Part shown: positions 44,725-61,955 of the stretch, in pieces
Position numbering within the stretch: the stretch's first letter is position 1
Layout: every line of letters starts with the position of its first letter
Assembly: GCA_000004985.1 (NCBI GenBank)
Contig: GG738845.1
DNA length: 64,000 nucleotides
Source: Naegleria gruberi
Taxonomy: Eukaryota
Direction: 5' to 3' (one strand)
The notes under the pieces: generated by a model
Seen by the model: only the letters and a program-made list of their open reading frames with translations
The model's database searches: none
Told to the model about the DNA's origin: nothing
Translations under genes and position numbers: made by a program

Positions 44725-46949
44725 TTATTTCATAAACTTCTTGAGGTATGTAAATTTTCTTCTCTTTTGTTTTTCAGTGAGCTTTTCGTAAGGTGATTGA
44801 TTATCAACAGGTTGTTCTTCTGGTTTTTGTTCAACAAGAATGGTTTGTTCATCCAATTCAAATGGATCATAACCTTTGGCTTGAATGATCTTTTCCTTCT
44901 TTCTCTCAAGAGACTCGGTATGAACATTGACACGATTGAAATCATCAATTTCACCTTCCCATTCCATTTCGTCCTCAGATTCTTCTAATGTAGCCTCTTC
45001 TTCTTCATCAGAGTTGTAAATGTCTTCTTCGTCATCATGATATTCTCCTTCTTCTTCGTCTTCACTTTCTGTAAAGTATTCACCATCGTCTTCCAATTCT
45101 TCATCATGATTAATGACAATGATTTCATCATTATCATTAAGCATTCCTTCTGATTGTATCTTATCATTTTCTTCCAAATCATCAACTTGAATATTTTCAG
45201 GAGGTGCATGGCAATACAGAATTTTACCATCTATGTAATCTTTCAAAATACGACGAGCAGCTGTTGGATAGTTGGGCACGAAATTCTTGGACATCAAACT
45301 CTTTGCAATACAAAAAGTCTTAAGTAAATTTTCTGGAGTAACAAATGTCATACGTTGTTTTCCAGGAAGTTTTGGGAACGACAAACCATATGTAAGTTCG
45401 AAAACACGTCTAGGAACACGACAACAAACCAATTCTATTGGTGGAATGTGATCTCTCATTTGGTGATCAATTGAAATAATACCATTTACAATCATTTCTT
45501 CCTTGGTTGTTGTAATTGATGGGAAAACTAGACCTGGACAGTCAGCAATCATTATACTTTCACCAATTGGAAGTGTTTGGAAATGTTTTGTTTTACCTGG
45601 AGTGGAACCAACTGCAACCTTCTTTTTACCACATAACACATTTACAAGTGATGATTTACCAACGTTTGGATAACCGACCATACCAACAACAACTCTACCA
45701 ATGTCACTCTTCTTATTTTCAGGATTGAACTTATTCATCAAACTCTTAAAGAAGAATAACAATTCAGATCTATCAAAAATATATGTCCAATCTTTTTCTT
45801 GGGGATTTTCATAATTAGTAGTATCGAATGAATCTAGTTCCTCTTGTTGTTCTTTTAAAAGATCTTCTCTGGTAATTTGACGATTTGCAATTTTAGAAAT
45901 TTCATTCAAAGCAGAGAAGAAGATAAAGTTAATCTTCTTCTTTTTAAAGTAGCATGCCCATTTGAATCTTTGCTTTTTTGTAAGCAAATCAGCCTTATTC
46001 AAAAGTAAAAAGTTTTCCTTTGATGAATCAACCTCTTTCACATACTTTTCTAAATCTTCACTTTGAAATAATAATGGATTACGAGAATCTACAATTTGAA
46101 TAACAATGTCACTTCTCTCCACAACACGCCATAATTGTCTCCAAACTTCAATGTTCTTTTCATATGGTGTGAGTGTAGCATCATAACTTTCTTCAATCTC
46201 TGCCAAATTTCTTCTCCACTTTAAGAATGATTCGGTTTCAAATTGAATGAGTTTCTTCTTTGCTAGTTCATTCTTTTTTTCCTTTTTCTTCTTTTTCTTC
46301 TTTTGTTCGGGCTCAGTTGACTCTTGAACATAATTCATCAAATCATAGGCTTCCTTTGGTCTTCTAGGTATTGGTAATTGTATTCCCATTTCTTGTAATT
46401 CACGAACACGTTCATAAATTTCATCTTGTGATTTTTCCTTCAAAACCAATGTTCCTTCAGCATAGGCTTCATCGTCATCATCTTGATTTTCCTCATCTAA
46501 AATTATTTCATATTATTTAAAAAAATTATTAATCAATGATAAAACATACCATCTCCTTCTTCTTCTTCATCCCTATCAACGACATGAAATTCTCTCCGAG
46601 AGCCATCTTCATCAGTATGTATTAAAACAGTAGCACTATCTTTTTCATACTTTTTTAAGCTCATCTTGGCGTTTAACATTAAATCTTGGAGATCTGTTGT
46701 TCCAATTAAACTTTCCAATTTTCCTCTGCCTTTGTTGAGCATATTGTGCATGATATTATCTTCACGTAAAATTTCTTCTTCGATAGGAAGTTCATCGGAG
46801 CCCATGGTTACGGTTTCTTTACCCAATATTGCATCAGCAACTGGTTCTTGATGTCTATCAGAAAACACCTTGTCCTTCTTTCGGTTACGAGCTTTTAAAA
46901 TTGTTTTACCTAATCCTCCGGATTTATTCTTGGTTCTTGTTCCTGGCAT
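44725..46949 (-). CDS. LSG1: Large-subunit GTPase 1 (LSG1), a 60S ribosome biogenesis GTPase. Exons 46949-46550 and 46496-44725.
   Basis: Exon 1 (MPGTRTKNKSGGLGKTILKARNRKK...) matches the LSG1 N-terminus. Exon 2 matches FLEWRR.L...E....LTPFE.N...WRQLWRV.ERSD.V.QIVD.RNPLLF..DLE.YVKE... and has the circularly permuted GTPase motifs NKADLL and GYPNVGKSS. The intron 46497-46549 (GTATGT..TTTTAG) is in phase 1. Confidence 0.85.
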
Positions 46950-47022: not shown

Positions 47023-48676
47023 TCAGTGTTTTGTTGTGAGTGAAAAAGTGTGATTACATTTGAGAATTTCCTGTGTTTGCATTTGGGAAAGTCTGTTGCT
47101 TATTAAAAACACCTTTGTTCTTCCTAGAAGATCTCCTGTTGCCATTAGCATTGGATTATGTTTGTTGAACTCTAGACATGAAAGAGCCTTTCCATCTTGT
47201 GAAACGTCAATATCATTAATTGGCTCAGTTGTGGACTCTAAGAGATCGAACATGTATAGGTGTCCATTGGAGCTGGCAACAGCAACTACCATTGGACGAA
47301 ATGGAGAGAATTTAGAACAACTACTAGGATCAGTGGATGGTTGCAAAGTTAGAATATCTTTTGTTCTGAAAGCATTATATATCCTTACTAATCCGTCACT
47401 GCAACAAGACATAAATAAATCCTTATTAAAAGTATTGGCATCAAGAGTGTAAATAATTCCAGTTCCAGAGTCAAATTCAGATTCCATCTTTTCTTCCTTA
47501 AAGTTTACATTTGTTTTCTTTAAGGTAGCCATTTTTCTGGTGCTAATCATTTTAGAGTCTGATATCGATAGTTTAAACACATTTCCAACTTCTGTTCCTA
47601 AAATAAATGAGCTGTCAAGTGTTGGTGTTTTCTTTTGAGATAGGGCGCTACTGCCAAATAAATTTAAAAAACAAAGTGATGAACCACCCAAAGGAGTAGA
47701 CTTGAGTGGGCTATTCAGGGCAATCGCGTGAATAGGTTGCTCTAGCTTGTTATGTAAACTCCATAATAATATTTTTCCGTCTCCACTCATACTCAATATA
47801 AGAAATGAGTCATCATATCTATTTCTTACCCATTGAAGACTAGTTATTGGATCTCTATGGGAGTAGGATTCAATTGAGGTTTGGCAAAGAAGACTGTCTG
47901 TATCCTGATGAAGTTTGTAAACCTTAATACCTCCATCATATGTACCTGCTGCAATAATATTATGCTTATCTGGATGGAATGCTAATTTCATAACGTAACT
48001 CTCTTCGTTTTCGATTGTAACTTTTGGTTCTAGGTTGTAATCTGTATAAATATCAGGATTTATCAAAAAGAAACACATATATCCTGGATCAACACACCAC
48101 CCACTAGCCGAGGGTTTTCCAAAGCTCACACCCAACATGTTTCCTTTACAATTCCAAGATAAGTCAGTTACTGACAATGGTTCATGTAACTTTTTAATTA
48201 TTCTCTCTGGTAATTTTAATTCGTGAGCTGTTGACATTTCCTCAATATCCACAGACCAATTAACATCGTAATCAATGAACGATAAATAATGAACTGTTTC
48301 AGCGTTAATCAATTCCTTTTCCATTTGAGGGTAGACTTTTTTCAAGAATGTAGATATTTCTCCTTCATTGCTTGTTGTTTCATTCCTTACTCTTTTAATA
48401 ACATCCTCAATTGAGTCCGTTTGTATCTTCCCTTGTAAACATTTAAATAATTTACTTCCAACCTACTTCTTGATCGGCCACAATGCCTTGCTCCACTGAA
48501 AAATCATTACTAATACATGATGCATTGGATTGAACTCCAGAATCCTCAAAAGACAAACTCATCGTCTGTGTAGAATGGTCTGCACTCGGATTCTTTTTCT
48601 GGCCCCACTTTGAATTAAAATTGGCTCCTTGAACAAATCCGAACGAATAGAAAACTTCGTTATTTGCCTTGTTCAT
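47023..48676 (-). CDS. WD40-repeat protein of about 500 aa, possibly like a dynein intermediate chain. The main exon is 47023-48324 or longer. A probable 5' exon lies at 48676 to about 48457.
   Basis: The main ORF has WD repeats (...AAGTYDGGIKVYKL..., ...CCSDGLVRIYNA..., ...ASSNGHLYMFDL...). The upstream ORF (MNKANNEVFYSFGF..., genuine ATG 48676) can join via a GTAGGT (40-bp) or GTAAAT (64-bp) intron. The exact junction is ambiguous. Confidence 0.45.
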
Positions 48677-48927: not shown

Positions 48928-51900
48928 TTAAACAATTGTCTTTCTAATAATTCTTCCATCTCCACCAGATGTATAGAAAAATTGAGTGCTTATCTCAGAC
49001 CATGTAACACCTTCTTGAGTGAAAAGTTTCTTCTTTGGGTGAGTGTCTGGATAAAAGTATAATTGTTTCTTTAAATTCTTCATATCCCAAACAGTTATGT
49101 GACCATTGGAGCAACCAGTAACAAAGAAATCTTCTGTAACATCAATATTTAAAACTTGAATACTGTCATGTTGAGTGGAGGTCTTTTGTAAAAAACCATA
49201 ACTTCCATCTTCTGCATCAAAGATGTAAATATCTCCCTTCTTGGTACCAACAAGTAATAGTTTATACTTGTAAGAATAGCGAAGGGCAATTGGTTCATCA
49301 TTGTTAGGGAATAAGTAATAGAACATTTTAGCATCTTGATTTGGCAAGAATAAATCCCAAATACACAATTCGCCTCCCTTTTGTGATTGTCCAATAGTTG
49401 CAATCAAACTGCCTGACTCTAAAAATGAAAAATCATTTACCTTAGTGCCATGACAATGTAAATGATAAAAGTAATGTAGACTTTCCTTGGATGCTTCAAA
49501 TCTCCATAATGTAAGATAACCTGATGTATCTGTGACACCAAATTTGTATCCAAATCTGGAGAAACGAATGTTAGTAATTGGTGATGTACCAGGTTCTCTA
49601 TAAGTTCTCAAAGCATATTGGAATCCATATTGCCACATGAATACAGAACCATCTGCACCTCCAGATATATAGAAAGGTAAAAATGGATGAGATACTAAAA
49701 CGTTGGCTGTTTGATTTCTGTCAATTTTTCCAACTTTTTTGACTGGTTGTTTAGATGGAGGAACATTTGATTGTCTTCTAAAATGAGATGCAGATGGAGT
49801 TGTAGTCGTGAAGGAAGGTCTTTTACCAACAGAAAATCTTTGTTTAAGCTTGTTCATATAAGAATTGCTTGAATCGACAGAAGACATTGGATTGGAGAAA
49901 CCAATAAACTTTTTCAAATTCTTGTTGGACATGGCTTCATCATCATTTACCGTATCTAGGAAGTCAAAAACGTTAAAGTTTGAAATGCTTGGAACTTTAG
50001 CAATAGAAGAGGACTGCTGTACAAACTTGGTATTATTTACATCCTTGGCAGCAATTTCATCAAATCGGTGGAATGATTGATCCCAAGTATTGGCTTCCTC
50101 ATCTAAAAGTTTGTCAAGTGAAGGATTTCTCTTTCTGTATCTAATAGAATGTTCAATATTAATCTCTCTAATACATTTGCCAGATGCATATGCCAAATAG
50201 CTTGGGTTATTGGAGTCTACACAGAAAGATTTGATCAATTCTTTACATTTGACAATTTCAATATCTGCAGAGAATTTCAAAACTTCATCTGATTCTGTCT
50301 TTGAGAAGTCGGAGGAAGTTTCGGTAGTGTTCTCACCACTAGCAAATTTTGCTAGACTACTATTGACGCTTACGGAACTGCTAATATTTGGTTTTGGTTT
50401 AGATGATAAATCCATCAAGTAGCTCCATAATTGTTGGGAAGTTGGATCAGACTTGAAAGTATCGAAAATCTTTTCATCCTCTAACCAATGATCACTAATA
50501 CAAGACAAGAGAAGATTTTGTTGTCCTCCAACTTGTTCCAATCCCAACTCTGGTAGAGCATGTGCCAATGAGTGGAAATGATCCTTTGACGATTGAGTAC
50601 GTTGATGCATTTTCTTTGATCCATGAGAAAGGGTTTCTACCATGCTTGATAAATTATTTCTTGTTGAGAGTGCGTTTACATCTTTCAAATTAGGAGCCCC
50701 ATGCTCAGAGACAGTGTATACTTCCATTTCTCTATATTGAAGTCGTCTTTCTAAATGGGAGCACCACAATGCAGAACATGAAAGAGCAGTTTGTGCACAG
50801 AGTGAATATTGTTGCTTATTGATATCATCCCTCTTCTTTTGGGATTGTTTGACAAATCCAGAGTAGGTTTCATCATAGGCATGTTCAATAAAATCCTTTA
50901 GAGTTGTTGTAAACTTGAACACTACAAATGCATCAAACATTTCCCAATGAAATTGCTTTTCAATTCTTTCAACATCCTCGTTTCTATCACTTCCAGATTT
51001 TGTGGTCTTGTTGTGATAGTTTTCGAGAAGATTTTTGTAATAGTCTTTCTTCTTCTCAGCTTCTTCTTTGTTAATGATCAAACCGGATGTCTTATTGACA
51101 GGAGCTTTTTTCTTTCTTTTCTCTTCTTGGTCAATTTCCTCTTGCATTGCCTTGTTTATCTTATTATCCAACATCTTTTTCTTGAATTTTTTGTGGAACA
51201 TGGCCATTCTATCGAAAAGTAAATGATAAAACTTGTCAAATACTTCTTTTCCTTCAAAGCTTGGACGAGAGGACAACGAATCTCTTTCCTTTTTATCAAA
51301 ATCTTGATGAAGAGTAAAAAGTGTGAAAAGCCCCTCAAAATCACGGTTAAAGTATAAAATTACAAACATCATTGTCTATTCAAGTTAAAAATGATCTATG
51401 TTTTTTTCAAAATACTTACTAAAAGAGTTGATGAGAGATCTGATTGTTGGTGTTCGGTAATGATTACCTTATTGCTCTTCATTCTACTGTAACAATGGAC
51501 ATATTCCTTTAGTAATCCTTCTAAAACGTTAACTTGTGATTTTCTTAATTGATTCTTGATTACAAGAGAAAGTGTGTTTTCAACTTGATAAACAAAAGAT
51601 TCCAAAATTCTAAGAATTGAACTTGGCTTGGAGCAAAGTAAACACCTTGCTGCTAATAATCCATTGACTCTTGTGAACACTTTGAGCTTTTTGATTAGCA
51701 TTTGTTTGTCAATATCCAATTTTTCAACAAGCTCATCAATATCTGTCATTATCTTCTTATGATTCTTGTCCCAGTCACTGTGGTAATTTGAATTGGTACG
51801 ATAACAACAATCATAAAGTTCTTGAGAAATGATTGTGAGGGCTGTTTTGAATTTGAGAAGTTCAGTAAGATCAGTTTGTTCTTTAGCATCCTCAATGGAA

Positions 51901-54900
51901 ATAGTGGAAGAGTTCAATTGCTGTTGTTTAGTGTTACCCATTCCCATACCACTCATTCCACCAAACCCACTCAAAGTTCCACTTGCAAGATTTCCTGATG
52001 TGCCTGATCCTCTCATGGAGTTACTCATTCCCATATTGTTCATTCCACCAAATCCACTCAGAGTTCCACTAGATAGATTTCCAGAAGCCATGGAATTACC
52101 CATTCCCATACTGCCCATACCAAACCCACTTAAAGTTCCACTTGCAAGATTGCCCGAGTTAATGGAAGAAGTCTTACTCATTGAATTACCCATTCCCATA
52201 CCACTCATTCCACCAAATCCACTTAAAGTTCCACTAGACAAATTTCCAGAAGCCATGGAATTACTCATTCCCATACCACTCATTCCACCAAATCCACCCA
52301 AGGTACCGCTAGATAAGTTGCCAGATGTCATAGAGCTATTCATACCCATTCCCATACTACTCATTCCGCCAAACCCTCCCAAAGTTCCACTTGTCAAATT
52401 TCCTGAAGTACTAGGTGTAGTTTTAGGTGTCCCAAAGGCTCCCATATTGATTTGACCAGACATTAAATCATTTTGTCCAGTTGAAGTATTCAACTTTCTT
52501 TTAGAAGTATATTGTTCCATATTTTTAAGTTTCAATAAATGTTCTAAACAAAGTGTGTAAAGTCCAACTTGGCTATAATAATGAGCAGTTCTTAATAATA
52601 TTGGAAGAGCATGCTTTGCAACAAGATCTGATGAATTCAAGTGTGGCTTGGAATCTACCTTAATACAGAATGCAAAAAGAGAAGGATCAAAAGCTTCATT
52701 CTCCTCTCCTCTCTTGATGAGTGTTTCAATGGATGTTTCATACTTTTTCAGTGTCCACAAAATAACACCTTGCATCCATACATCCTTGCTTTCAGTGTAT
52801 CGTTGATAGAGTTCATTTTCCAACATGTTCTTACAGAAATTACTATCATCACCACAATATAGACGAGCAATGAAGAAAGCTAAATCGTATTCTTTGGCGC
52901 TTTTGATGAGAATACTGATAGCGTCTTTAGGATTATCAGCAAGTAAAAAATATGCGGCAGCATAGTAATAATCCTGTCTACTAAGTAAAGTATAGGCATT
53001 CTTAGATGCTGCTACTCTACATTTTTCATCTGTGAAATCCTTATTTAAGAATTCAGCAACCTTCTCATTACCTTTGAGTTTGAAAAGTCTAGCCAATGCT
53101 CCTTTCTTCTTAATAGCCATATAATACAAAGCACATTTGGTAGGATCATTTGTTTCCTTATAAATTTCTGTTGCAAGTCGTTCAGCAACCTTTCTCAAAG
53201 AATTATTATTCATCCAGTAACAAACACCCAACTGTTCTACAAGTTTCCAACAAATATCCTCTTCTTCTGGGCAAATCATACGCCATAATGAATCCTGTGT
53301 TTCAGAAAGTAAAGCCCAAGCTATCATTGAACTGTTTACCTTTTCTATTAATAAATTATCATGCTCCGTTGATGATTTTGAAGAATCCCTCATTTCGGGT
53401 TTTCTTTTATCGTATAGAAACTGTAAATACTTGACTGTCACAAGATATCTGATACCAGCTGGATCTAAGGCTTCAGGATTTCTTTGAAGCTCAATAAAAG
53501 TGTCAACTACAGCCTGTAAGTTCATTTGCTCTATCTTTGAAATGCCAGGTAAGTGAATACTACTTTTAGAAAGGAGAGAGTTTAAATAATGGACATCGGA
53601 ATAAATGTTAATTTCTTCTTCTTCAGTTTCTGTCGGGGTTTCCTTCTTTTGGTTTTCTTCTTTGGCTATTTCTTCGTCAATATTTGTGAACTTGTCAAGG
53701 AGTGTTCTTCTCTTTTGTACAACAGGTTCTGTCTTCTTTGATTCTTCCTTTAAGAGAGAGGTCACTTTAATTGATGGAATTTCCAATAGGTGAGAATAGT
53801 CCTTGTCCTTATTTAGATATTCTTCAATTTTATCATTCTTCTTCTTTTCAACCAAATCTTCATAAATCTTCAAATGCTTAACTAAATGATGTATAATTGT
53901 CTTGATTATACTAAATCTTCCATCCATAAGTAATTCTAAAAGGAAATTTGGGTGATAGTCTACTAGTCTTCTGTGCGTAAGTAAGGATTCTGTATTAAGA
54001 GTTGGTTCAGATGCCAATTTGAAAAGAGACATTAGAGCAAGAGAATCATCATTTTGTTGAGTCTTTGTGTACACATGCAAAGATGAACCAAAAGAGGCGA
54101 TAATAGCCTTATCCTTTGTAACTGTAATTTTGGAACATGGATGACCTTTAACTGAAGGCATAAATTGTGTAACCTTTTTCCAGTATTGTTTTTGTTGTTT
54201 GATTATTCCTGGAGGTATCTTTGATTGAGTGTAGTACAATATCTTGGAATCTGTTCCAATACAAATAACAAACTGACCGTCTCCATAGCTCAACCATTCA
54301 AAATCGTGCACGAAATCACTCTCTGTATTGATAGATTGTTCTAATGTGTATGTTACATGGGATTCATTTTCCCAAATTTTTACACAACTTGAGGAAGAGG
54401 TTGTAGTAGCAATTCTAGAAACCAATTCACAGCACCTAACAGTAGTAATTGGTTCTTTTTCGGCTCTAAACTCGAACCACTTTTGTAATATGAGTTTTTC
54501 CTCATCTGTATTAATACTGGCTGTAGAAGAGCTAGAATTGGAAGTAGTGGCGGTAAATTTTCCAAGAAGACCACCAATCTTTGGTTTCGGAGGCTCTTTG
54601 ACTTCATTTTCCTGTTTTTTCAATCTTATTACAGAGACAGTACCATCCTTATTACCCAGAGTAATAACTACCACTCTTTGATTAGAAAAATACTTCTTAA
54701 TACTGGATTCATTTGATAAAGCTGTCTTACTCTCTACAGTAAAATGTTTTAAAGTTGTATATAAAATTAAATGACTTACTATGAATATCATACACAAAAG
54801 GAACTCCTTTTACACAGTCTGCACTGCAAACGATCTTTTCAAGATTTTGTTTGATAAGGGTTTTACATTCGAATTGATTTACATCATTTTGCTTTGCCTC

Positions 54901-56968
54901 AACTTGGAAAATGCCAATGGTTTTACAATTCGAAGCAATAGCAACTACCAATGCTCCAATTGAGGAGGTTTTTTCTGGACTAGTAGGAGATGTTCCAAAA
55001 GGCAAAACTTTGAGGAACATACAATCAGAAAAATCTTCTGAATTTGGAAGAATAAAATTCAATGAATGAATATTATAGTAAGAAGGTGAAGGTGGAAATA
55101 TTGTAGATTCATAGATGCTAGAGAGGTTGTGAGTGAGAGGGTTGACTGATTTTACGTGAATGACTTCAATACCTTTGTTTGTTGAGCAAAACAAATGAGG
55201 AGAAGTAGGAAACCATGAAATATTTGTTGCATTAATTTGAAAATCTTGAATATTGGTCAAAACATCTTTAGGGCTATAAAATGGTGTATCTCTTATATGC
55301 CATGCTACAAGATGGTTATTATCCTTATCTAATGATGCCATTATTGGTAGACTTGGGTGGCATTCCATATTTTTAACATCTCCAATATGTCCTGTAAATA
55401 CATTAAGTAATTCTAATTGAGGACGTTTAGCCAAGTTTAACTCCCAACTAGATAACATTCCATTTCTACTTTGTACATAGATTGTTAAAATTTTTGGAGT
55501 TGTAGAACCCAAATCAAGATTTGAATCATCAGCTGTTTTGTAAACCATTGATACATTTAATGGATCTTCAATACCTTTTAATGCATTAGGCATCTTTATC
55601 CACATGGAAGTTTTTGGAGTTCTTCTTGGAAAATCGGCCAATCCTTGTAATAAATCAATCATTAATGTACCATCAGATTGAACTGTTCCTAACCATGTTT
55701 GTGATTCGAATAGACCTGTATCAGAACTTGCTTTTTGAAGTTTAGTCTCCAAACTGATCTTTGTCTCACTCTCTAAAATTATATCCTTGTGATCACCTTC
55801 ATAAGACTTCTTTCTTTTTTTTCTGAGGTATTGTAGAAGTAGCTCATTTGGGCTCCTCTCATTAGCTGTATTTAACCATTGCACATTGGAAGGAGTTTCC
55901 TTTTCAATGATAGAACAAACATAAAATGACAAGTCTTCATTCTCGTTTGTTTCACTCCATACACGTACCACATTGTCAATAGATGTTGTCAATAAAACAT
56001 TAGCTGTAAATTCATCTCTTTGTTGTGATTGTATATCCTTAAATCTCCATGAGATGGAAGTAACTGAACGAGGATGAGGTAAATAAATGTAGGAAAAACT
56101 TTCTTCTTCATCATCCTCAATAGTTTGTGAAGTAGATTTTGGATCTACAATAGTAATTACTGGAGTAAATAATGATACTCTGACTTGAGGTTTGTTTCTA
56201 TACCAAACCTTTACAAGACGATCAAACTTGGACACTGTTGCAAAATATTTTTCATCTGGTGAATATGCAACTAAGTAAATTGGAGTTGGATTGTCATATT
56301 TCCAAACCATATTCCATTTCTAAACTATATTATAAATTTCTAAACATAAAGAAACATACATAAACTTGATTTCCTAGAATAGGTTTTCCTTCAAAAATCA
56401 TTGTAGTTTTTCCACCAACAATTAGTCTATCACCATAAAAATTCCAATCCATGCATTCGAATTCATCTGTTGAGTTAATAACCTGTTCAACAATCCAAGA
56501 AGGGCTCTTTTTCAAGGCACCATTGTCAACCTCATCTTCAACTGGAGAATAAATAACAATTTTTCCTCTTGAGCAAGCAGCAATTCTTCCATGAAGATTA
56601 CTCCATTTTACGCTGGTAATAGTTTCATCATGACCATCCAATAATTGAACAAAACTATTTCCACAATAAACCATAACATGTCTTCCGCTTGCAAAAGCAA
56701 TCACTTCATCACCCATAAATGTTGACCATGTAAAAGCTTGAGGATAGGGATTAATAGAACCAGGACAAACCTGCCAAGCATTAATCCCTTTTGATCTGTT
56801 GATACTTGGTGTTGTCTGTTGTTCCGTTGCATTGGATCCTAATATATTTAAACCGTTTGAGAAGATATTTCCTCCAAACGATGATGAAGAACCAGCAGGT
56901 GTAGAGGGAGTACTTTTTGGTGTATTAACCAAAGGAGTAGTGGTTCCGCTCGAAACACCGTTAAACAT
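48928..56968 (-). CDS. Giant protein of about 2,630 aa with WD40 propellers at both ends and a central Rav1p_C-like region, like rabconnectin-3alpha/DMXL/Rav1 (V-ATPase RAVE complex). Four exons: 56968-56360, 56319-54780, 54733-51420, 51375-48928.
   Basis: Four ORF-track pieces join in frame through introns 56320-56359 (GTATGT..TTTAG), 54734-54779 (GTAAGT..CTGTAG) and 51376-51419 (GTAAGT..GAATAG). The central block reads ...AAAYFLLADNPKDAISILIKSAKEYDLAFFIARLYCGDD.... This resembles the Rav1p_C signature (AA.FLL.G...DA..VC...L.D.QLA..IARLYEG). The C-terminal and N-terminal regions are WD repeats. Confidence 0.55.
51930..52440 (-). repeat. In-frame tandem repeat inside the DMXL-like gene. There are about 7 copies of a unit of about 75 nt, encoding SGNL(A/S)SGTLSGFGGMSGMGMGNSM(A/T).
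   Basis: The repeat is visible directly in both the DNA and the protein (...SGNLTSGTLGGFGGMSSMGMGMNSSMTSGNLSSGTLGGFGGMSGMGMSNSMASGNLSSGTLSGFGGMSGMGMGNSMSKT...). Its antisense reading gives the spurious proline-rich ORF 51829-52455. Confidence 0.8.
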
Positions 56969-57113
56969 TTTTTTTAAATAGATTTTTTAATACGTAAATC
57001 TAAAATAGGTTTATTAATTTAATAAATACCTAATTATTTTTTATTTATTTATTAAAAATATTTTTCGTCACCTTTTGCAAAGTAGATGTAATTTTAACGA
57101 AATAATTTACATT

Positions 57114-57668
57114 TTATTCTAAAACCATTTTTTCTTCATTTTCCTTTTGTTCCTTACTTCCATTATATACAAGTCTATCAAAGGAGCCAAATATTTTTTC
57201 CTTATCAGGAATATCAAGGTTTGTTAGGATGGCAGGTATCTTTGACATTATTTTTGGAAGTTTGGGTATTGGATTTTCTTTTGTTAGTTCATCACTCGAC
57301 AAACAATGTGCAAATATACAACAATTTTCATCCTTTACATTTTTTTGAACAAAAGTCTTGTACCAAAATTCCAATTCCTTTACATGATTAATGTTTGAAG
57401 GATTATACACTATAATACATCCGTTCATGTCCTTCATTATTGCAGGCCAACAATTTTCGAAATTTCGATCTCCAGAAATATCCCAAAGTTCTACCGACAC
57501 CTTTTCCATTGATTGCATCTCTCTATCACATTCGCAAATTCTTAGACCCATAGTTGGTCTGTATTCATTTGAAAATTCCTTATATCCACTAAGAAAATTA
57601 CAAATAGCACTCTTGCCACTCTTTTTTGGTCCAACAACAATAAGTTTTACAGTTTGTGAGTCACTCAT
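57114..57668 (-). CDS. IFT22: Intraflagellar transport protein 22 (IFT22/RABL5), an atypical Rab-like small GTPase
   Basis: The match to human IFT22 is close: ILFVGPCESGKTVLANFL / ELWDCGGDAKFESCWPALMKDAHGVVIVFN / EMWYSCFVQQ in human against LIVVGPKKSGKSAICNFL / ELWDISGDRNFENCWPAIMKDMNGCIIVYN / EFWYKTFVQK here. The start is a genuine ATG. Confidence 0.75.
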   Translation of the reverse strand: MSDSQTVKLIVVGPKKSGKSAICNFLSGYKEFSNEYRPTMGLRICECDREMQSMEKVSVELWDISGDRNFENCWPAIMKDMNGCIIVYNPSNINHVKELEFWYKTFVQKNVKDENCCIFAHCLSSDELTKENPIPKLPKIMSKIPAILTNLDIPDKEKIFGSFDRLVYNGSKEQKENEEKMVLE

Positions 57669-59995: not shown

Positions 59996-61955
59996 TTAAT
60001 TGGACCAAACATCCTTTTGATATCTGTGACCTAATTTTTCCAAATAATCTTGGGCATCCTTTTCAGTCATTCTACCATATTTTTGAATACTGTTCAACAT
60101 TACATTTTCTACATCCTTTGCCATATGTTTAGCATCACCACAAATGTAGAAATAGCCACCATTATTCAAAAAGTTGAATAATTCTTCACTTCTAGATTCT
60201 AATCTATGTTGAACGTAAACCTTATTTCCTTGATCTCTAGAGAAGGCAACATCTAAAAGAGAAATAACACCATCTCTTTCTGCCTTTTCCATTTCTTCAC
60301 TATAAATATAATCTTCACCTCTCTTTCTACAACCAAAATAGAGATGACATGGTCCTAGTTCAACTCCTCTATTCTTCATAGCTGTTCTTTGTTCAAGGAA
60401 TCCAAGGAATGGAGCAATACCAGTACCAGGTCCAACCATGATAACAGGAGTCTTTGGATCTTGTGGAAGACGGAAACTTGATTGACGAACATAAATAAAA
60501 GCCTTTTTGTCTACATCAATTCTTTCCAAATATGATGAACAGACACCTTCCTTGTTTGCTCCGATTGGAGTAGTATACTTGACAACAGCAACAACGGCGG
60601 AAATAGTATTTGGATGTAATTGAGATGAGGAAGCAATAGAGTAGTAACGAACTTGCATCTTTGGAACAATTTCTAAAAGGCCGTCAACTGGTAACTTGAC
60701 AGATGTGAAATGATTCAAAACCTCAAGAACATTACGACATCCTTCCTTAACAAAAGAATTGTACTTGGCTTTACCCTCCTCGCTATTTGAAGCAAGAAGT
60801 TTGAGTTCAGTACGTTCAGATTCATTTTGAGCATAGTGAGCCATAACTTTGAAAGCTTTCTTCTTTGCGAGTTCATTAAGATCCATATAATAAGTGAATG
60901 CAATTCTGAGAGTCATTGCATCCTTTGGGAAATAACTAGCCAATCTGTTATCTTTGTGATTTCTCAATTGGAATGGTGCATCGGCTTGTTCATTAGTAAT
61001 TCCGATTCTAGCCAAATAAGCATTTACCAAATTTTCATTATTAGCTGGATAGACAGCCAAGTGATCGCCTGCTTCATATTTGATTCCACTATCAGTAATG
61101 TTGAAATCTACATGAACAGTACTTCTATTATCCGATCCAGAACTCTTCAACAATTGTTCCTTCTTACTAATGGTAGCCAAGAATGGGTGTTTAGCATCAG
61201 GAGCAGAACTTGATGATTTGAATGGGGTCATGGCAATATTCTTCTTTAAGAAGTCGAGAGTAAACTTTGGTTCATATTCCTCTTCTTCTTCTGTAATGGT
61301 TGTAGAGAAAATGTCAGAAGCTGTCAATAACATGTGTGACTTCCATTCTTCAAAATCTTCTTCAATATCAGCATCAGCATCACCTTCTCCCTTTCTAAAG
61401 AATCTTTCACCACCGAGCTCTTCAAATCTTTTATCAAAGAATCTCGCCATTGCTTGGTAAATCTTGTATTGCTTGTTACCCAATCCAAAAACAGAAAACT
61501 TGACACCTGAAAGCATATCAGAGGAAATACTTGTGTCTTTGTAGTATTCATAAAAATCACGAGCGTTATCAGTTGGTTCACCCTCACCGTAAGTTGCAAC
61601 CATTAGGATGACAAGTTTTTCATTTGAAATTTGGTCAGGCTCAAAGTCAACCATATCCTTAGCAACAGCATTAAAGCCGTACTTTTTAGCATCTTGTGCT
61701 AATGTATTAGAGAATTCTTCAGCTGTACCTGTTTGAGAACCATAGAGAATGAGCATCTTTGGCCTTCCATCATCAACATATTCCTTGCTAAAGTTTAAAA
61801 TTATTTTAAATTTAATTATCTTATACAGTAGAAAATAAAACCTACTTTTCTTCTTCAACTTCTTCTTCGGTTTCTTGGTTATCCGATCTCAGGACAAACC
61901 AGTAGGTAAAGAAAGCACCAATAGCAGCCAAAAATCCATATAAAATGTAACTCAT
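59996..61955 (-). CDS. NADPH-cytochrome P450 reductase (FMN plus FAD/NADPH domains). Exons 61955-61846 and 61787-59996.
   Basis: Exon 1 (MSYILYGFLAAIGAFFTYWFVLRSDNQETEEEVEEE) is the N-terminal membrane anchor. It joins via a 58-bp intron (GTAGGT..CTTTAG, 61788-61845), phase 2, to KEYVDDGRPKMLILYGSQTGTAEEFSNTLAQDAKKYGF.... Other matches are YYSIASSS, GPGTGIAPF and the C-terminal DVWSN; human POR ends DVWS. Confidence 0.85.

What the first reader, a model, noticed from the sequence alone, without database searches (positions are those of the whole stretch)
48928..56968. Rav1/DMXL-like gene of about 2,630 aa carrying an internal Gly/Ser/Met tandem repeat
Four long ORFs on the minus strand fuse through three 40-46 bp introns into one gene. 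It has WD40 propellers at both ends and a central AAAYFLLADNPKDAI...LAFFIARLYCGDD block like that of RAVE/rabconnectin-3alpha. Inside it, about 7 tandem copies of SGNLxSGTLSGFGGMSGMGMGNSM run from about 51930 to 52440. This is an FG/GM-rich, nucleoporin-like, low-complexity array not typical of DMXL proteins. It could mediate phase separation or membrane association, or it could be a recently expanded microsatellite-like coding repeat that is polymorphic between strains.
Basis: partly seen in the sequence, partly recalled or inferred. Interest (0 to 1): 0.5.

Follow-up and report, generated by a model that had tools for sequence, protein, structure and literature searches.

The report
Naegleria Rav1/DMXL gene, disordered repeat linker
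This is the already-annotated Naegleria gruberi homologue of Rav1/DMXL, the factor that assembles the vacuolar proton pump; its odd Gly/Ser/Met repeat is a real, old, six-copy expansion of the floppy linker behind the pump-binding domain, and it sits next to a short motif that is conserved in this protein family from yeasts to animals.

Summary
Four minus-strand exons (56968-48928) joined across introns of 40, 46 and 44 nt give a 2636-aa protein. It is residue-for-residue identical to Naegleria gruberi XP_002683483.1 (UniProt D2UY64, named as containing the Rav1 C-terminal domain). Pfam Rav1p_C scores 295 bits (E=1e-87), and yeast Rav1p (PDB 9COP) matches by sequence and by fold. The repeat has six units, not seven: SGNLxSGTLxGFGGMxxMGMGNSM, aa 1493-1650, window 51933-52406. 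It is not an assembly artefact, because an independent metagenome contig (99.7% identical) carries the identical array. It is not a recent microsatellite: units are 75-88% identical in DNA, with pS 0.54 against pN 0.09. AlphaFold2 predicts aa ~1460-1662 to be disordered, starting right after the V1-binding helical bundle. The claim that the tract is atypical for DMXL is only half right. All heterolobosean orthologues have a G/F/M tract at this position (about 30-160 aa; N. fowleri about 45). Immediately upstream lies DLMSGQINMGAFG, one instance of a short motif (roughly SG-x-Φ-D-Φ-x-x-F/P, Φ = hydrophobic residue) found in this linker across the eukaryotes sampled, and at the extreme C-terminus of three ascomycete Rav1 sequences. 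The motif's partner is unknown. The gene itself is ordinary; the motif is the useful lead.

The parts
48928..56968 (-). Rav1/DMXL gene of Naegleria gruberi (NAEGRDRAFT_77763). Exons are 56968-56360, 56319-54780, 54733-51420 and 51375-48928 (stop codon included). The protein is 2636 aa.
   Evidence: splice enumeration and translation. (exact identity to XP_002683483.1).
56320..56359 (-). Intron 1, 40 nt, GTATGT...TTTAG.
   Evidence: Confirmed by identity of the spliced product to the RefSeq protein.
54734..54779 (-). Intron 2, 46 nt, GTAAGT...TGTAG.
51376..51419 (-). Intron 3, 44 nt, GTAAGT...AATAG.
52701..54527 (-). Rav1p_C domain (Pfam PF12234), aa 786-1394. It comprises the last propeller blades plus the alpha-solenoid.
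   Evidence: E=1e-87, 295.5 bits. In the AF2 model, beta strands span aa ~738-938 and helices follow.
53949..53966 (-). LVDYHP (aa 973-978). It aligns with yeast Rav1p 757-762 (LPVYHP), the six-residue motif reported to bind the Vo a-subunit N-terminal domain.
   Evidence: Alignment. H is invariant and Y, P nearly invariant in alignment A3. The role of the motif comes from PMC8264551. Position.
52902..53018 (-). Equivalent (aa 1289-1327) of the three Rav1p helices 1012-1050 that contact V1 subunit A.
   Evidence: alignment. Mapped onto the window, the Rav1p contact residues become F1020->Y, L1023->L, F1035->F, D1043->D and K1050->K (kept), and T1013->V and L1016->S (changed). The contact list is from PMC11648922.
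52506..53333 (-). Confidently modelled alpha-solenoid / terminal helical bundle (aa ~1184-1459).
   Evidence: AF2 pLDDT is mostly >90. Foldseek's only significant PDB match is 9cop_x, yeast Rav1p (E=7.9e-12).
51903..52484 (-). Predicted intrinsically disordered linker, aa ~1467-1660.
   Evidence: pLDDT <50 in two independent AF2 runs (aa 1467-1660, aa 1460-1662). No secondary structure; only a 3-residue helix (aa 1473-1475).
52431..52469 (-). Conserved short linear motif DLMSGQINMGAFG (aa 1472-1484), the family-wide post-solenoid motif.
   Evidence: A PSSM built from other lineages scores 20.8 at aa 1475. This exceeds every one of 200 whole-protein shuffles and 500 shuffles of the low-complexity region. 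It aligns with LMSGQINMGSFG, NSGMLDMGSFG and MTGTLDMSSFN of the orthologues.
51933..52406 (-). Tandem array of six units SGNLxSGTLxGFGGMxxMGMGNSM(x0-7), aa 1493-1650. Unit coordinates: u1 52406-52326, u2 52325-52251, u3 52250-52158, u4 52157-52086, u5 52085-51999, u6 51998-51933.
   Evidence: Identical in the independent contig L002.
48931..49701 (-). C-terminal WD40 beta-propeller (aa ~2380-2636). DMXL proteins have it; yeast Rav1 lacks it.
   Evidence: multiple beta-propeller families, E down to 2e-19.

Best explanation
The gene encodes the Naegleria gruberi Rav1/DMXL subunit of a RAVE/rabconnectin-3-type complex, which re-attaches the V1 sector of the vacuolar H+-ATPase to the membrane Vo sector.

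The Gly/Ser/Met repeat is part of an intrinsically disordered, almost uncharged linker of about 200 aa. The linker begins directly after the V1-binding helical bundle and connects it to the C-terminal helical/WD40 half.

The first 13 residues of the linker (DLMSGQINMGAFG) are an instance of an ancient short linear motif of the family, and presumably a docking site for a partner not yet identified. The six SGNL...GFGGM...MGMG units are a sub-lineage-specific tandem amplification of the G/F/M-rich tract that follows this motif in all heteroloboseans. The last step was probably a two-unit (165-nt) duplication.

The units are kept by selection at the peptide level. I infer that they act as a flexible tether carrying evenly spaced weak hydrophobic 'stickers' (Leu, Phe, Met), which add reach and multivalency to whatever the adjacent motif does.

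Shown: gene identity, domain architecture, reality, age and conservation of the array, position, and family-wide occurrence of the motif. Predicted only: disorder. Inferred: that the motif is a docking site, that the units derive from motif plus tract, and that they act multivalently.
For: Identity:
- Exact match to XP_002683483.1.
- Rav1p_C at 295 bits.
- 9COP Rav1p matches by sequence (E=1e-36) and by fold (E=8e-12).
- Five of seven V1-A contact residues are kept, and LVDYHP is present.

Disorder: two AF2 runs give pLDDT 25-40 over aa ~1460-1662, flanked by helices with pLDDT >85.

Position:
- The human DMXL2 helical-bundle construct that suffices for V1 binding ends at ...GCPVLALEVLSKI. This is the counterpart of window ...LCLEHLLKL (aa ~1459).
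- In yeast, everything after the solenoid (residues 1194-1357) is disordered and unresolved.

The array is real and old:
- Contig L002 is identical over the array.
- Unit DNA identity is 75-88%, pooled pS is 0.54 against pN 0.094, and dN/dS is 0.04-0.17 for 13 of 15 unit pairs.
- The 8-mer SGNLSSGT(L/F) is shared with orthologue P0002, which is only 64% identical overall.

The tract is ancestral but elastic. The window has about 160 aa, P0002 about 130, Willaertia about 75, N. fowleri about 45, and P0003/P0004 about 30-40, all at the same alignment position.

The motif is family-wide:
- A strict pattern, fixed before testing, gave 15 hits in the linker zone against 1 elsewhere in 146 new representatives. 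Shuffles gave 0.03-0.12.
- A loose 6-mer hit 77 times in 39 of 78 proteins, against 4.0 hits expected from composition-preserving shuffles.
- Named carriers are Willaertia, N. fowleri, Capsaspora, Chromosphaera, Coemansia, Linnemannia, three chytrid genera, insect, hemichordate and fish DMXL, with a looser match in Leishmania.
- It also forms the extreme C-terminus of three ascomycete Rav1 sequences (Wickerhamomyces, Nadsonia, Polychaeton).

Motif and GM tract can behave as one repeat unit: P0072 has seven copies of DSGTMNFFGGGMMGMGMGMG.
Against: - The six SGNL units do not match the ancestral motif in an ungapped PSSM (scores <=4, no better than shuffles). Their derivation from it rests on a gapped by-eye alignment (12/16 identities to the P0072 unit).
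- N. fowleri manages with about 45 aa, so a high copy number is not essential to the family's function.
- The human helical bundle binds V1 without the linker, so the motif is not needed for that contact.
- AF2 does not dock the motif onto the domains that could be included.
- The partner is unknown.
- The dN/dS estimate rests on about 25 codons per unit and on non-independent pairs. Low-complexity composition could inflate apparent constraint.
- There are no expression or protein data.
- A database search with the array alone returned nothing, so it cannot be said whether other proteins share it.
Confidence: 0.6

Rival explanations
1. Neutral spacer. The array is a product of replication slippage or unequal crossing-over in a disordered linker where only length and flexibility matter loosely. 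The individual units have no function of their own.
For: - Tract length varies about five-fold among close relatives, and N. fowleri has about 45 aa and no SGNL unit.
- The region is predicted disordered.
- The units do not match the conserved motif.
- Tandem expansions at this spot recur in many lineages, as expected of a slippage-prone, tolerant region.
Against: - Units differ mostly at synonymous sites (pS 0.54 against pN 0.09).
- The SGNLSSGT(L/F)..GFGG core is kept in six copies here and four in P0002, despite 36% overall divergence between the proteins.
- The two available genotypes do not differ in copy number.
Confidence: 0.28
2. FG-nucleoporin-like cohesive domain. The uncharged FG/GM tract drives self-association, phase separation or hydrogel formation, concentrating the assembly factor on membranes.
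For: Composition resembles cohesive GLFG-type spacers: G/S/N/T-rich, 4 charged residues in 180, and 7 regularly spaced FG. The region is predicted disordered.
Against: - There are only 7 FG.
- No nucleoporin family or anchoring domain was found.
- The closest relative with a name (N. fowleri) has a tract about four times shorter.
- There is no experimental or comparative hint of condensates for Rav1/DMXL in the papers read.
- The resemblance is compositional only.
Confidence: 0.1
3. Assembly collapse or expansion, or a mis-annotated non-coding stretch.
For: None beyond the general risk with tandem repeats.
Against: - The independent ENA metagenome contig L002 (7477 bp, 99.67% identical) spans the array and 187 nt beyond it, with no difference.
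- Copies are only 75-88% identical, so they are easy to assemble.
- The frame stays open for 474 nt.
- The substitution pattern is that of coding sequence.
- The RefSeq model includes it.
Confidence: 0.01

Closest known systems
Yeast Rav1p (RAVE complex; PDB 9COP)
   Same: - Rav1p_C domain.
- An alpha-solenoid whose helices 1012-1050 bind V1 subunit A; 5 of 7 contact residues are kept.
- The LPVYHP/LVDYHP motif.
- A disordered stretch that begins right after the solenoid (Rav1p 1194-1357, unresolved).
Sources.
   Different: Rav1p ends with that disordered tail. The Naegleria protein continues for about 1000 aa (helical region plus a third propeller), as DMXL does. In the ascomycete sequences examined the motif sits at the very C-terminus (EPDMSSFNFGF-COOH in Wickerhamomyces) and is not followed by a G/M tract. 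I could not check S. cerevisiae itself.
Metazoan DMXL1/DMXL2 (rabconnectin-3alpha, mRAVE)
   Same: - Overall architecture: N-terminal propellers, Rav1-C helical bundle, unstructured region, helical region, C-terminal WD40.
- 25-30% identity with E about 1e-90 to 1e-103.
- The linker after the bundle carries the same class of motif, as (G)LDWSQPV, usually twice, then L.L.W(D/S)DD(D/E).
   Different: The metazoan linker is acidic, uses Trp/Pro rather than Met/Phe, and has no G/M tract. Partner subunits WDR7 and ROGDI were not looked for in Naegleria.
Other lineage-specific amplifications in the same linker
   Same: Tandem copies of motif plus spacer at the same position:
- Linnemannia: SGTFDFDSFG in 5-6 copies with GMSLMGGFK spacers.
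- Chytrids: GG(M/I/L)DWG(E/A)PV in 5-7 copies.
- P0068: NDMFANFGAKPKPKP in 8 copies.
- P0064: SGQVSMTGGFG in 5 copies.
- P0072: DSGTMNFFGGGMMGMGMGMG in 7 copies.
Sources.
   Different: In those arrays every unit contains a clear copy of the motif. In Naegleria gruberi only the leader does, and the units have lost the acidic residue and the second hydrophobic residue.
FG-repeat domains of nucleoporins
   Same: Uncharged, disordered, Gly/Ser/Asn/Thr-rich sequence with regularly spaced FG.
   Different: The tract has 7 FG rather than dozens and is Met-rich. There is no nucleoporin domain or anchor, and the host protein is a V-ATPase assembly factor.
G/F and G/M regions of class B J-domain proteins (e.g. 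yeast Sis1), and the Met-rich low-complexity domain of yeast Pbp1. Both are recalled from memory and were not tested here.
   Same: Gly/Phe followed by Gly/Met low-complexity composition in a flexible regulatory linker. Pbp1's Met-rich domain is reported to be redox-sensitive.
   Different: There is no J domain and no sequence relationship. The comparison is a compositional analogy only, offered as a lead.

Membership tests
Rav1 / DMXL (RAVE, rabconnectin-3alpha) | Rav1p_C domain (PF12234) above Pfam's gathering score | tested here: met
   295.5 bits against a cut-off of 27, E=1e-87, aa 786-1394.
Rav1 / DMXL (RAVE, rabconnectin-3alpha) | Alpha-solenoid / terminal helical bundle homologous to the V1 subunit A-binding helices of Rav1p | tested here: met
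   phmmer against 9cop_x gives E=1.1e-36. Foldseek of the AF2 model gives 9cop_x at E=7.9e-12 as the only significant hit. Five of seven published contact residues are conserved or conservative.
Rav1 / DMXL (RAVE, rabconnectin-3alpha) | Six-residue motif (Rav1p 757-762, LPVYHP) implicated in binding the Vo a-subunit N-terminal domain | tested here: met
   LVDYHP at aa 973-978 aligns with it. H is invariant and Y, P nearly invariant among 37 aligned homologues. The role of the motif is taken from PMC8264551.
Rav1 / DMXL (RAVE, rabconnectin-3alpha) | N-terminal double beta-propeller | tested here: inconclusive
   Pfam WD40 hits aa 106-140 (51.7 bits overall). The conserved blade YSPDEKYFATVSKFDRLVKVWY matches the family consensus FSPDG.LFAT....DRLVKIWY. 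AF2 shows blades for aa ~738-938. The first 717 aa were not modelled.
Rav1 / DMXL (RAVE, rabconnectin-3alpha) | C-terminal WD40 propeller (DMXL-type, absent from yeast Rav1) | tested here: met
   Several beta-propeller families hit aa 2380-2630, E down to 2e-19. The region is colinear with DMXL2 C-termini (consensus).
Rav1 / DMXL (RAVE, rabconnectin-3alpha) | Forms a complex with Rav2/ROGDI (and WDR7 or Skp1) and promotes V1-Vo assembly | not testable with these tools
   This needs the rest of the genome and experiments. N. gruberi has a full bafilomycin-sensitive V-ATPase, which is needed for contractile-vacuole filling (PMC10002747).
Post-solenoid short linear motif of Rav1/DMXL (defined in this report) | Match to [STAG]G.[LIFMV][DNS][FMW][GDST].[FP][GSVAN], or to the PSSM built from it, located after the last solenoid helix (16 aa after it in the window; up to a few hundred aa in other family members) | tested here: met
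   SGQINMGAFG at aa 1475 scores 20.8, above all shuffles. It lies 16 aa after the last helix.
Post-solenoid short linear motif of Rav1/DMXL (defined in this report) | The six tandem units are themselves copies of the motif | tested here: not met
   PSSM scores are <=4, no better than shuffles of the same region. Similarity appears only with a gap (12/16 identities to the P0072 unit, by eye).
FG nucleoporins | Nucleoporin FG-repeat or other Nup family match, plus an NPC-anchoring domain | tested here: not met
   No such family was found at E<=0.01. The rest of the protein is Rav1/DMXL.
FG nucleoporins | Dozens of FG motifs in an uncharged disordered domain | tested here: not met
   There are 7 FG in 180 aa. 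The composition is uncharged (4 D/E/K/R) and the region is predicted disordered.
Recent microsatellite-like coding repeat | Near-identical copies, and copy number differing between close genotypes | tested here: not met
   Copies are 75-88% identical and pS is 0.54. The window and contig L002 (99.67% identical) have the same six units. This is only two genotypes.

The most novel reading that the evidence does not exclude
The short motif at the start of this linker (consensus about Φ-(I/M/L)-(S/T)-(S/T)-G-x-Φ-(D/N/S)-(F/M/W)-x-x-(F/P)-G, Φ = hydrophobic residue) is a so far undescribed, pan-eukaryotic docking site of RAVE/rabconnectin-3. It occurs as MSGQINMGAFG in Naegleria, SGTFDFDSFG in Mucoromycota, GGMDWGEPV in chytrids, LDWSQPV in animals and EPDMSSFNFGF-COOH in yeasts. 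It would bind a conserved partner: for example a V-ATPase subunit other than the A/D contacts of the bundle, Rav2/ROGDI, an adaptor ear domain, or the membrane. Lineages such as N. gruberi have tuned avidity or reach by amplifying it, or its G/F/M tail, in tandem.
Probability: 0.35. Interest if true: 0.6.

Novelty: new variant of a known kind. Interest (0 to 1): 0.4.

Why it matters
The gene itself adds nothing new. It is an annotated orthologue of a well-studied V-ATPase assembly factor.

The comparison it prompted is what could matter. The region after the V1-binding bundle is described in current structural papers only as 'disordered' or 'unstructured'. Yet it carries a short motif, specific to this position, that is conserved across the eukaryotic groups sampled and is repeatedly amplified.

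How RAVE/mRAVE is recruited to the membrane sector, and how it senses the signal for reassembly, are open questions (PMC12527914). A conserved docking motif next to the V1-binding domain is a concrete, mutable candidate for that missing contact.

For Naegleria, V-ATPase drives contractile-vacuole filling, and that paper proposes the contractile vacuole as a potential drug target (PMC10002747). The N. gruberi and N. fowleri proteins differ by about 115 aa in this linker.

Tried and rejected
- A protein search with the array alone (aa 1467-1659) scored 6699 candidates and none reached E<=0.001. Not even the P0002 array was recovered, so the search says nothing about other proteins with such units.
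- The first whole-protein search did not return the N. gruberi protein itself or the N. fowleri orthologue, although both are in the collection. Exact look-up and the exhaustive representative search recovered them.
- A third structure prediction, of the linker plus the C-terminal half, was meant to see whether the motif docks on the last propeller. The two accepted runs show no docking in cis.
- A search of PDB sequences with a yeast-type Rav1 tail did not retrieve the tail of S. cerevisiae Rav1p. I therefore make no claim for that species.
- Neighbouring genes show no synteny between the window and the P0002 contig L001.
- The window contains no tRNA and no Rfam hit.
- Literature searches for a described motif in the Rav1/DMXL tail found none. 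The library is incomplete, so this is absence of evidence only.
- Candidate partners were considered from memory: the gamma-ear/GAE 'DFGxΦ' motif, kinesin-light-chain W-acidic motifs (for the metazoan L.W(D)DD element), LIR, clathrin box, class II PDZ ligands, and the ribosomal-stalk tail DDMGFGLFD. None fits all variants and none was tested.

Full report
**What is there.** The window has about 34% G+C and is densely packed with ORFs. On the minus strand, four long ORFs between 56968 and 48928 can be joined in frame by only one set of short consensus introns. These are 56359-56320 (40 nt, GTATGT..TAG), 54779-54734 (46 nt, GTAAGT..TAG) and 51419-51376 (44 nt, GTAAGT..TAG). The product has 2636 aa. 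An exact-sequence look-up finds this very protein as Naegleria gruberi XP_002683483.1 / EFC50739.1 (NAEGRDRAFT_77763). UniProt D2UY64 names it 'RAVE complex protein Rav1 C-terminal domain-containing protein', and it lies on a 1.56-Mb scaffold.

**Family.**
- Pfam Rav1p_C covers aa 786-1394 (E=1e-87, 295.5 bits). A WD40 repeat lies at aa 106-140, and many beta-propeller families hit aa 2380-2630.
- The best named relatives are Willaertia magna (55-58% identity) and N. fowleri (65%), then metazoan DMXL2 (about 25%, E 1e-90 to 1e-103) and fungal 'regulator of (H+)-ATPase in vacuolar membrane'.
- The only solved structure that matches is yeast Rav1p in the RAVE-V1 complex, PDB 9COP. It matches by sequence (E=1.1e-36) and by fold of an AlphaFold2 model (Foldseek E=7.9e-12).
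Of the seven published contact residues, five are kept or conservatively replaced (F1020->Y, L1023, F1035, D1043, K1050).
- LVDYHP (aa 973-978) aligns with Rav1p 757-762, the motif reported to bind the Vo a-subunit N-terminal domain.

Membership in the Rav1/DMXL family is therefore well supported. The DMXL-type C-terminal propeller is present. Partner subunits and activity were not testable.

**The repeat.**
- TRF reports overlapping arrays at 51934-52408 with periods 72, 75, 93 and 165.
- At protein level there are six units of 22-31 aa, each beginning with SGNL: SGNLxSGTLxGFGGMxxMGMGNSM plus a variable tail. They span aa 1493-1650, window 52406-51933.
- With its leader, the stretch is 28% Gly, 22% Ser and 14% Met. 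It has 7 FG and only 4 charged residues in 180, and it is the only low-entropy segment of the protein.
- The 165-nt period, together with the pattern of tails and of Ala/Ser at unit position 5, suggests that the last step duplicated a two-unit block, u3u4 -> u5u6. This is an inference.

**Artefact or recent expansion?** Neither.
- An ENA metagenome contig assembled independently (L002; ERZ929261, PRJEB11402; 7477 bp) aligns to window 59242-51746 at 99.67% identity.
- It differs by five substitutions and by two AT-rich indels in the 5' intergenic region.
- It is identical through the leader, all six units and 187 nt beyond.
- The units are only 75-88% identical in DNA. In codon-by-codon comparison the pooled synonymous difference is 0.54 per site against 0.094 per replacement site, and dN/dS is 0.04-0.17 for 13 of 15 pairs.
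- The copies are therefore far older than the 0.07% substitution divergence between the two genotypes, and their peptide sequence has been conserved.
- Caveats: the units are short, the pairs are not independent, and the composition is biased.

**Where it sits.** Two AlphaFold2 runs used a 37-sequence alignment, one for aa 1096-1760 and one for aa 718-1821. Both give a confident alpha-solenoid up to about aa 1459 (pLDDT >90). Then comes a stretch with pLDDT 25-40 and essentially no secondary structure (aa 1467-1660 and 1460-1662 respectively). Confident helices resume at about aa 1663. Two comparisons fix the meaning of this position:
- The human DMXL2 'helical bundle' construct that suffices to bind V1 ends at ...GCPVLALEVLSKI, the counterpart of the last helix before this stretch (PMC12527914).
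- In yeast, everything after the solenoid (1194-1357) is disordered and unresolved.

The repeat is thus part of the family's usual flexible region directly behind the V1-binding domain. In DMXL-type proteins that region links the bundle to the C-terminal half.

**Comparison with orthologues.** All eight heterolobosean sequences compared have a G/F/M-rich, uncharged tract at exactly this alignment position. Its length is elastic:
- window: about 160 aa, six SGNL units;
- metagenomic orthologue P0002 (64% identical overall): about 130 aa, four SGNLSSGT(L/F) units;
- Willaertia: about 75 aa;
- N. fowleri: about 45 aa, no SGNL unit;
- P0003/P0004: about 30-40 aa;
- P0070/P0071: the motif followed only by a short GGF stub.

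The window, N. fowleri and P0002 are about equidistant (64-65%). It therefore cannot be decided whether the SGNL array was gained in one branch or lost in N. fowleri. The array in P0002 is also a diverged tandem repeat in DNA.

**An unexpected by-product.** All eight sequences share, just before the tract, a short motif:
- LMSGQINMGAFG (window)
- LMSGQINMGSFG
- INSGMLDMGSFG
- LMTGTLDMSSFN
- LLTGEIDMHSF
- IMSGALDMSSF
- degenerate in Willaertia and N. fowleri, as LMSGQLS-GFGG and LMSGTFS-GFGG

Related motifs stand at the same place in very distant homologues:
- SGTFDFDSFG, five to six copies, in Linnemannia
- SGTFDFGSFGGFDD, twice, in a EukProt sequence
- AGVLDMDSFG followed by seven GGMDWGEPVS in Phlyctochytrium, and similar arrays in Borealophlyctis and Zopfochytrium
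- TGTLDMSAFS and SGMLSMDSFG in Coemansia
- INSGTFDFDNWGFGG in Chromosphaera
- STGQVSSGDWDWSQPAS in Capsaspora
- a looser STGTLLFRGFGGDSDDDD in Leishmania
- (G)LDWSQPV, usually twice, in insect, hemichordate and fish DMXL1/2

In three named ascomycetes the Rav1 protein ends with the motif...FEEPDMSSFNFGF in Wickerhamomyces...EPDMSAFNFGN in Nadsonia and ...FKEPDTGSLLDSFGF in Polychaeton.

*Test of the motif.* I fixed a strict pattern on the first set of sequences and then applied it to 146 new representatives from an exhaustive search.
- The strict pattern gave 15 hits in the linker zone, 1 elsewhere, and 0.03-0.12 in shuffles.
- A looser 6-mer occurs 77 times in the zone, in 39 of 78 proteins. 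Shuffles that keep local composition give 4.0 hits in 3.8 proteins. The density outside the zone is 0.10 per 1000 aa, against 1.93 inside.
- A PSSM built only from other lineages picks out a single site in the window protein, SGQINMGAFG at aa 1475. Its score of 20.8 is above every shuffle.

The papers I could read describe this region only as disordered or unstructured and do not mention the motif. The library is incomplete, so it may be described elsewhere.

**How the array relates to the motif.** The six units do not match the motif PSSM (scores <=4), so they are not simply extra copies. In the unnamed protein P0072, however, the repeated unit is motif plus Gly/Met tract (DSGTMNFFGGGMMGMGMGMG, seven near-identical copies). 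The second half of the Naegleria unit (SGTLSGFGG-MSGMGMG) matches it at 12 of 16 positions with one gap. I therefore infer, but have not shown, that the Naegleria unit descends from 'motif + G/F/M tail' and has lost the acidic residue and the second hydrophobic residue.

**Most likely mechanism.** I put this at about 0.6. The protein is the Rav1/DMXL scaffold of a V-ATPase assembly complex. N. gruberi has a complete, bafilomycin-sensitive V-ATPase that is needed to refill the contractile vacuole (PMC10002747). The stretch aa ~1460-1662 is a flexible, uncharged tether. It starts with a conserved docking motif and continues with six selected copies of a module bearing Leu/Phe/Met 'stickers'. These would lengthen the reach of the complex and add weak multivalent contacts.

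What the motif binds is unknown. It is not needed for the bundle-V1 contact, and AlphaFold2 did not dock it on the parts of the protein that could be included.

Rival views:
- A merely tolerated slippage product (0.28). It is favoured by the length variation and by N. fowleri, and disfavoured by the substitution pattern.
- A nucleoporin-like cohesive domain (0.1). The support is composition only.
- An artefact (0.01).

**Verdict.** The gene is already annotated. The repeat is a new, sub-lineage-specific variant of the family's disordered linker, and it is neither recent nor an artefact. The most interesting outcome is the conserved post-solenoid motif, which gives a concrete experimental handle on an unexplained part of RAVE/rabconnectin-3.

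Noticed in passing
window 57117-57668 (-): A 184-aa Ras/Roc-type small GTPase ORF (Pfam Roc E=3e-15, Ras E=1e-12). It ends about 146 bp upstream of the DMXL start codon on the same strand. A GTPase next to a 'rabconnectin' gene is a curiosity. The P0002 contig L001 shows no detectable similarity to the window outside the DMXL gene.
   Followed up: partly
window 51829-52455 (+): A 208-aa ORF antisense to the repeat. It is probably a mechanical consequence of the array rather than a gene: none of the codons used in the array gives a stop codon when reverse-complemented codon by codon.
   Followed up: no
window 56789-56968 (-), protein aa 1-60: A second Ser/Thr/Gly/Asn low-complexity stretch at the N-terminus, with SSSSFGGNIFSNGLNILGSN. 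Willaertia (SSDIFASNNNLLNLFSN) and N. fowleri (SSSNVFGGVAPLP) have similar hydrophobic-dotted N-termini. It may be another short motif.
   Followed up: no
window 57050-57058 and 57007-57017: Two AT-rich indels (9 and 11 nt) distinguish the window from the 99.67%-identical ENA metagenome contig L002. There are also five substitutions, at window 58821, 58182, 57183, 56453 and 54266. A second N. gruberi genotype therefore exists in public metagenome data (PRJEB11402).
   Followed up: partly
metazoan DMXL1/2 linkers (P0005, P0015, P0038, P0048, P0059), not in the window: After the LDWSQPV copies, animal sequences carry a conserved L-x-(L/I/K)-x-W-(D/S/G)-D-(D/E)-rich element: IEWDDDSNDE, LKLDWGDVKEDDEDEDD, LELTWSDDDDEDD, LDLKWDDDEEE. 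From memory, it resembles the tryptophan-acidic motifs bound by kinesin light chain. This was not tested.
   Followed up: no
P0072 (ENA, 2778 aa), linker about aa 1500-1750: Seven near-identical tandem copies of DSGTMNFFGGGMMGMGMGMG(A/M)GADPAPAAPQTAT occur in an unnamed eukaryote's Rav1/DMXL. This array looks truly recent, unlike the Naegleria one.
   Followed up: partly
window 47026-48345 (-), 59999-61858 (-), 44728-46449 (-): The neighbouring ORFs are a 440-aa WD40 protein directly downstream, an ORF with flavodoxin, FAD-binding and NAD-binding domains (an architecture that, from memory, resembles NADPH-cytochrome P450 reductase), and an MMR_HSR1-type GTPase. The whole window has no tRNA and no Rfam family.
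   Followed up: partly
database behaviour: The word-indexed protein search missed both the self hit (N. gruberi XP_002683483.1) and the N. fowleri orthologue. Possibly the low-complexity words of the array filled the candidate list. The absence of a self hit in that tool should not be read as absence from the database.
   Followed up: yes
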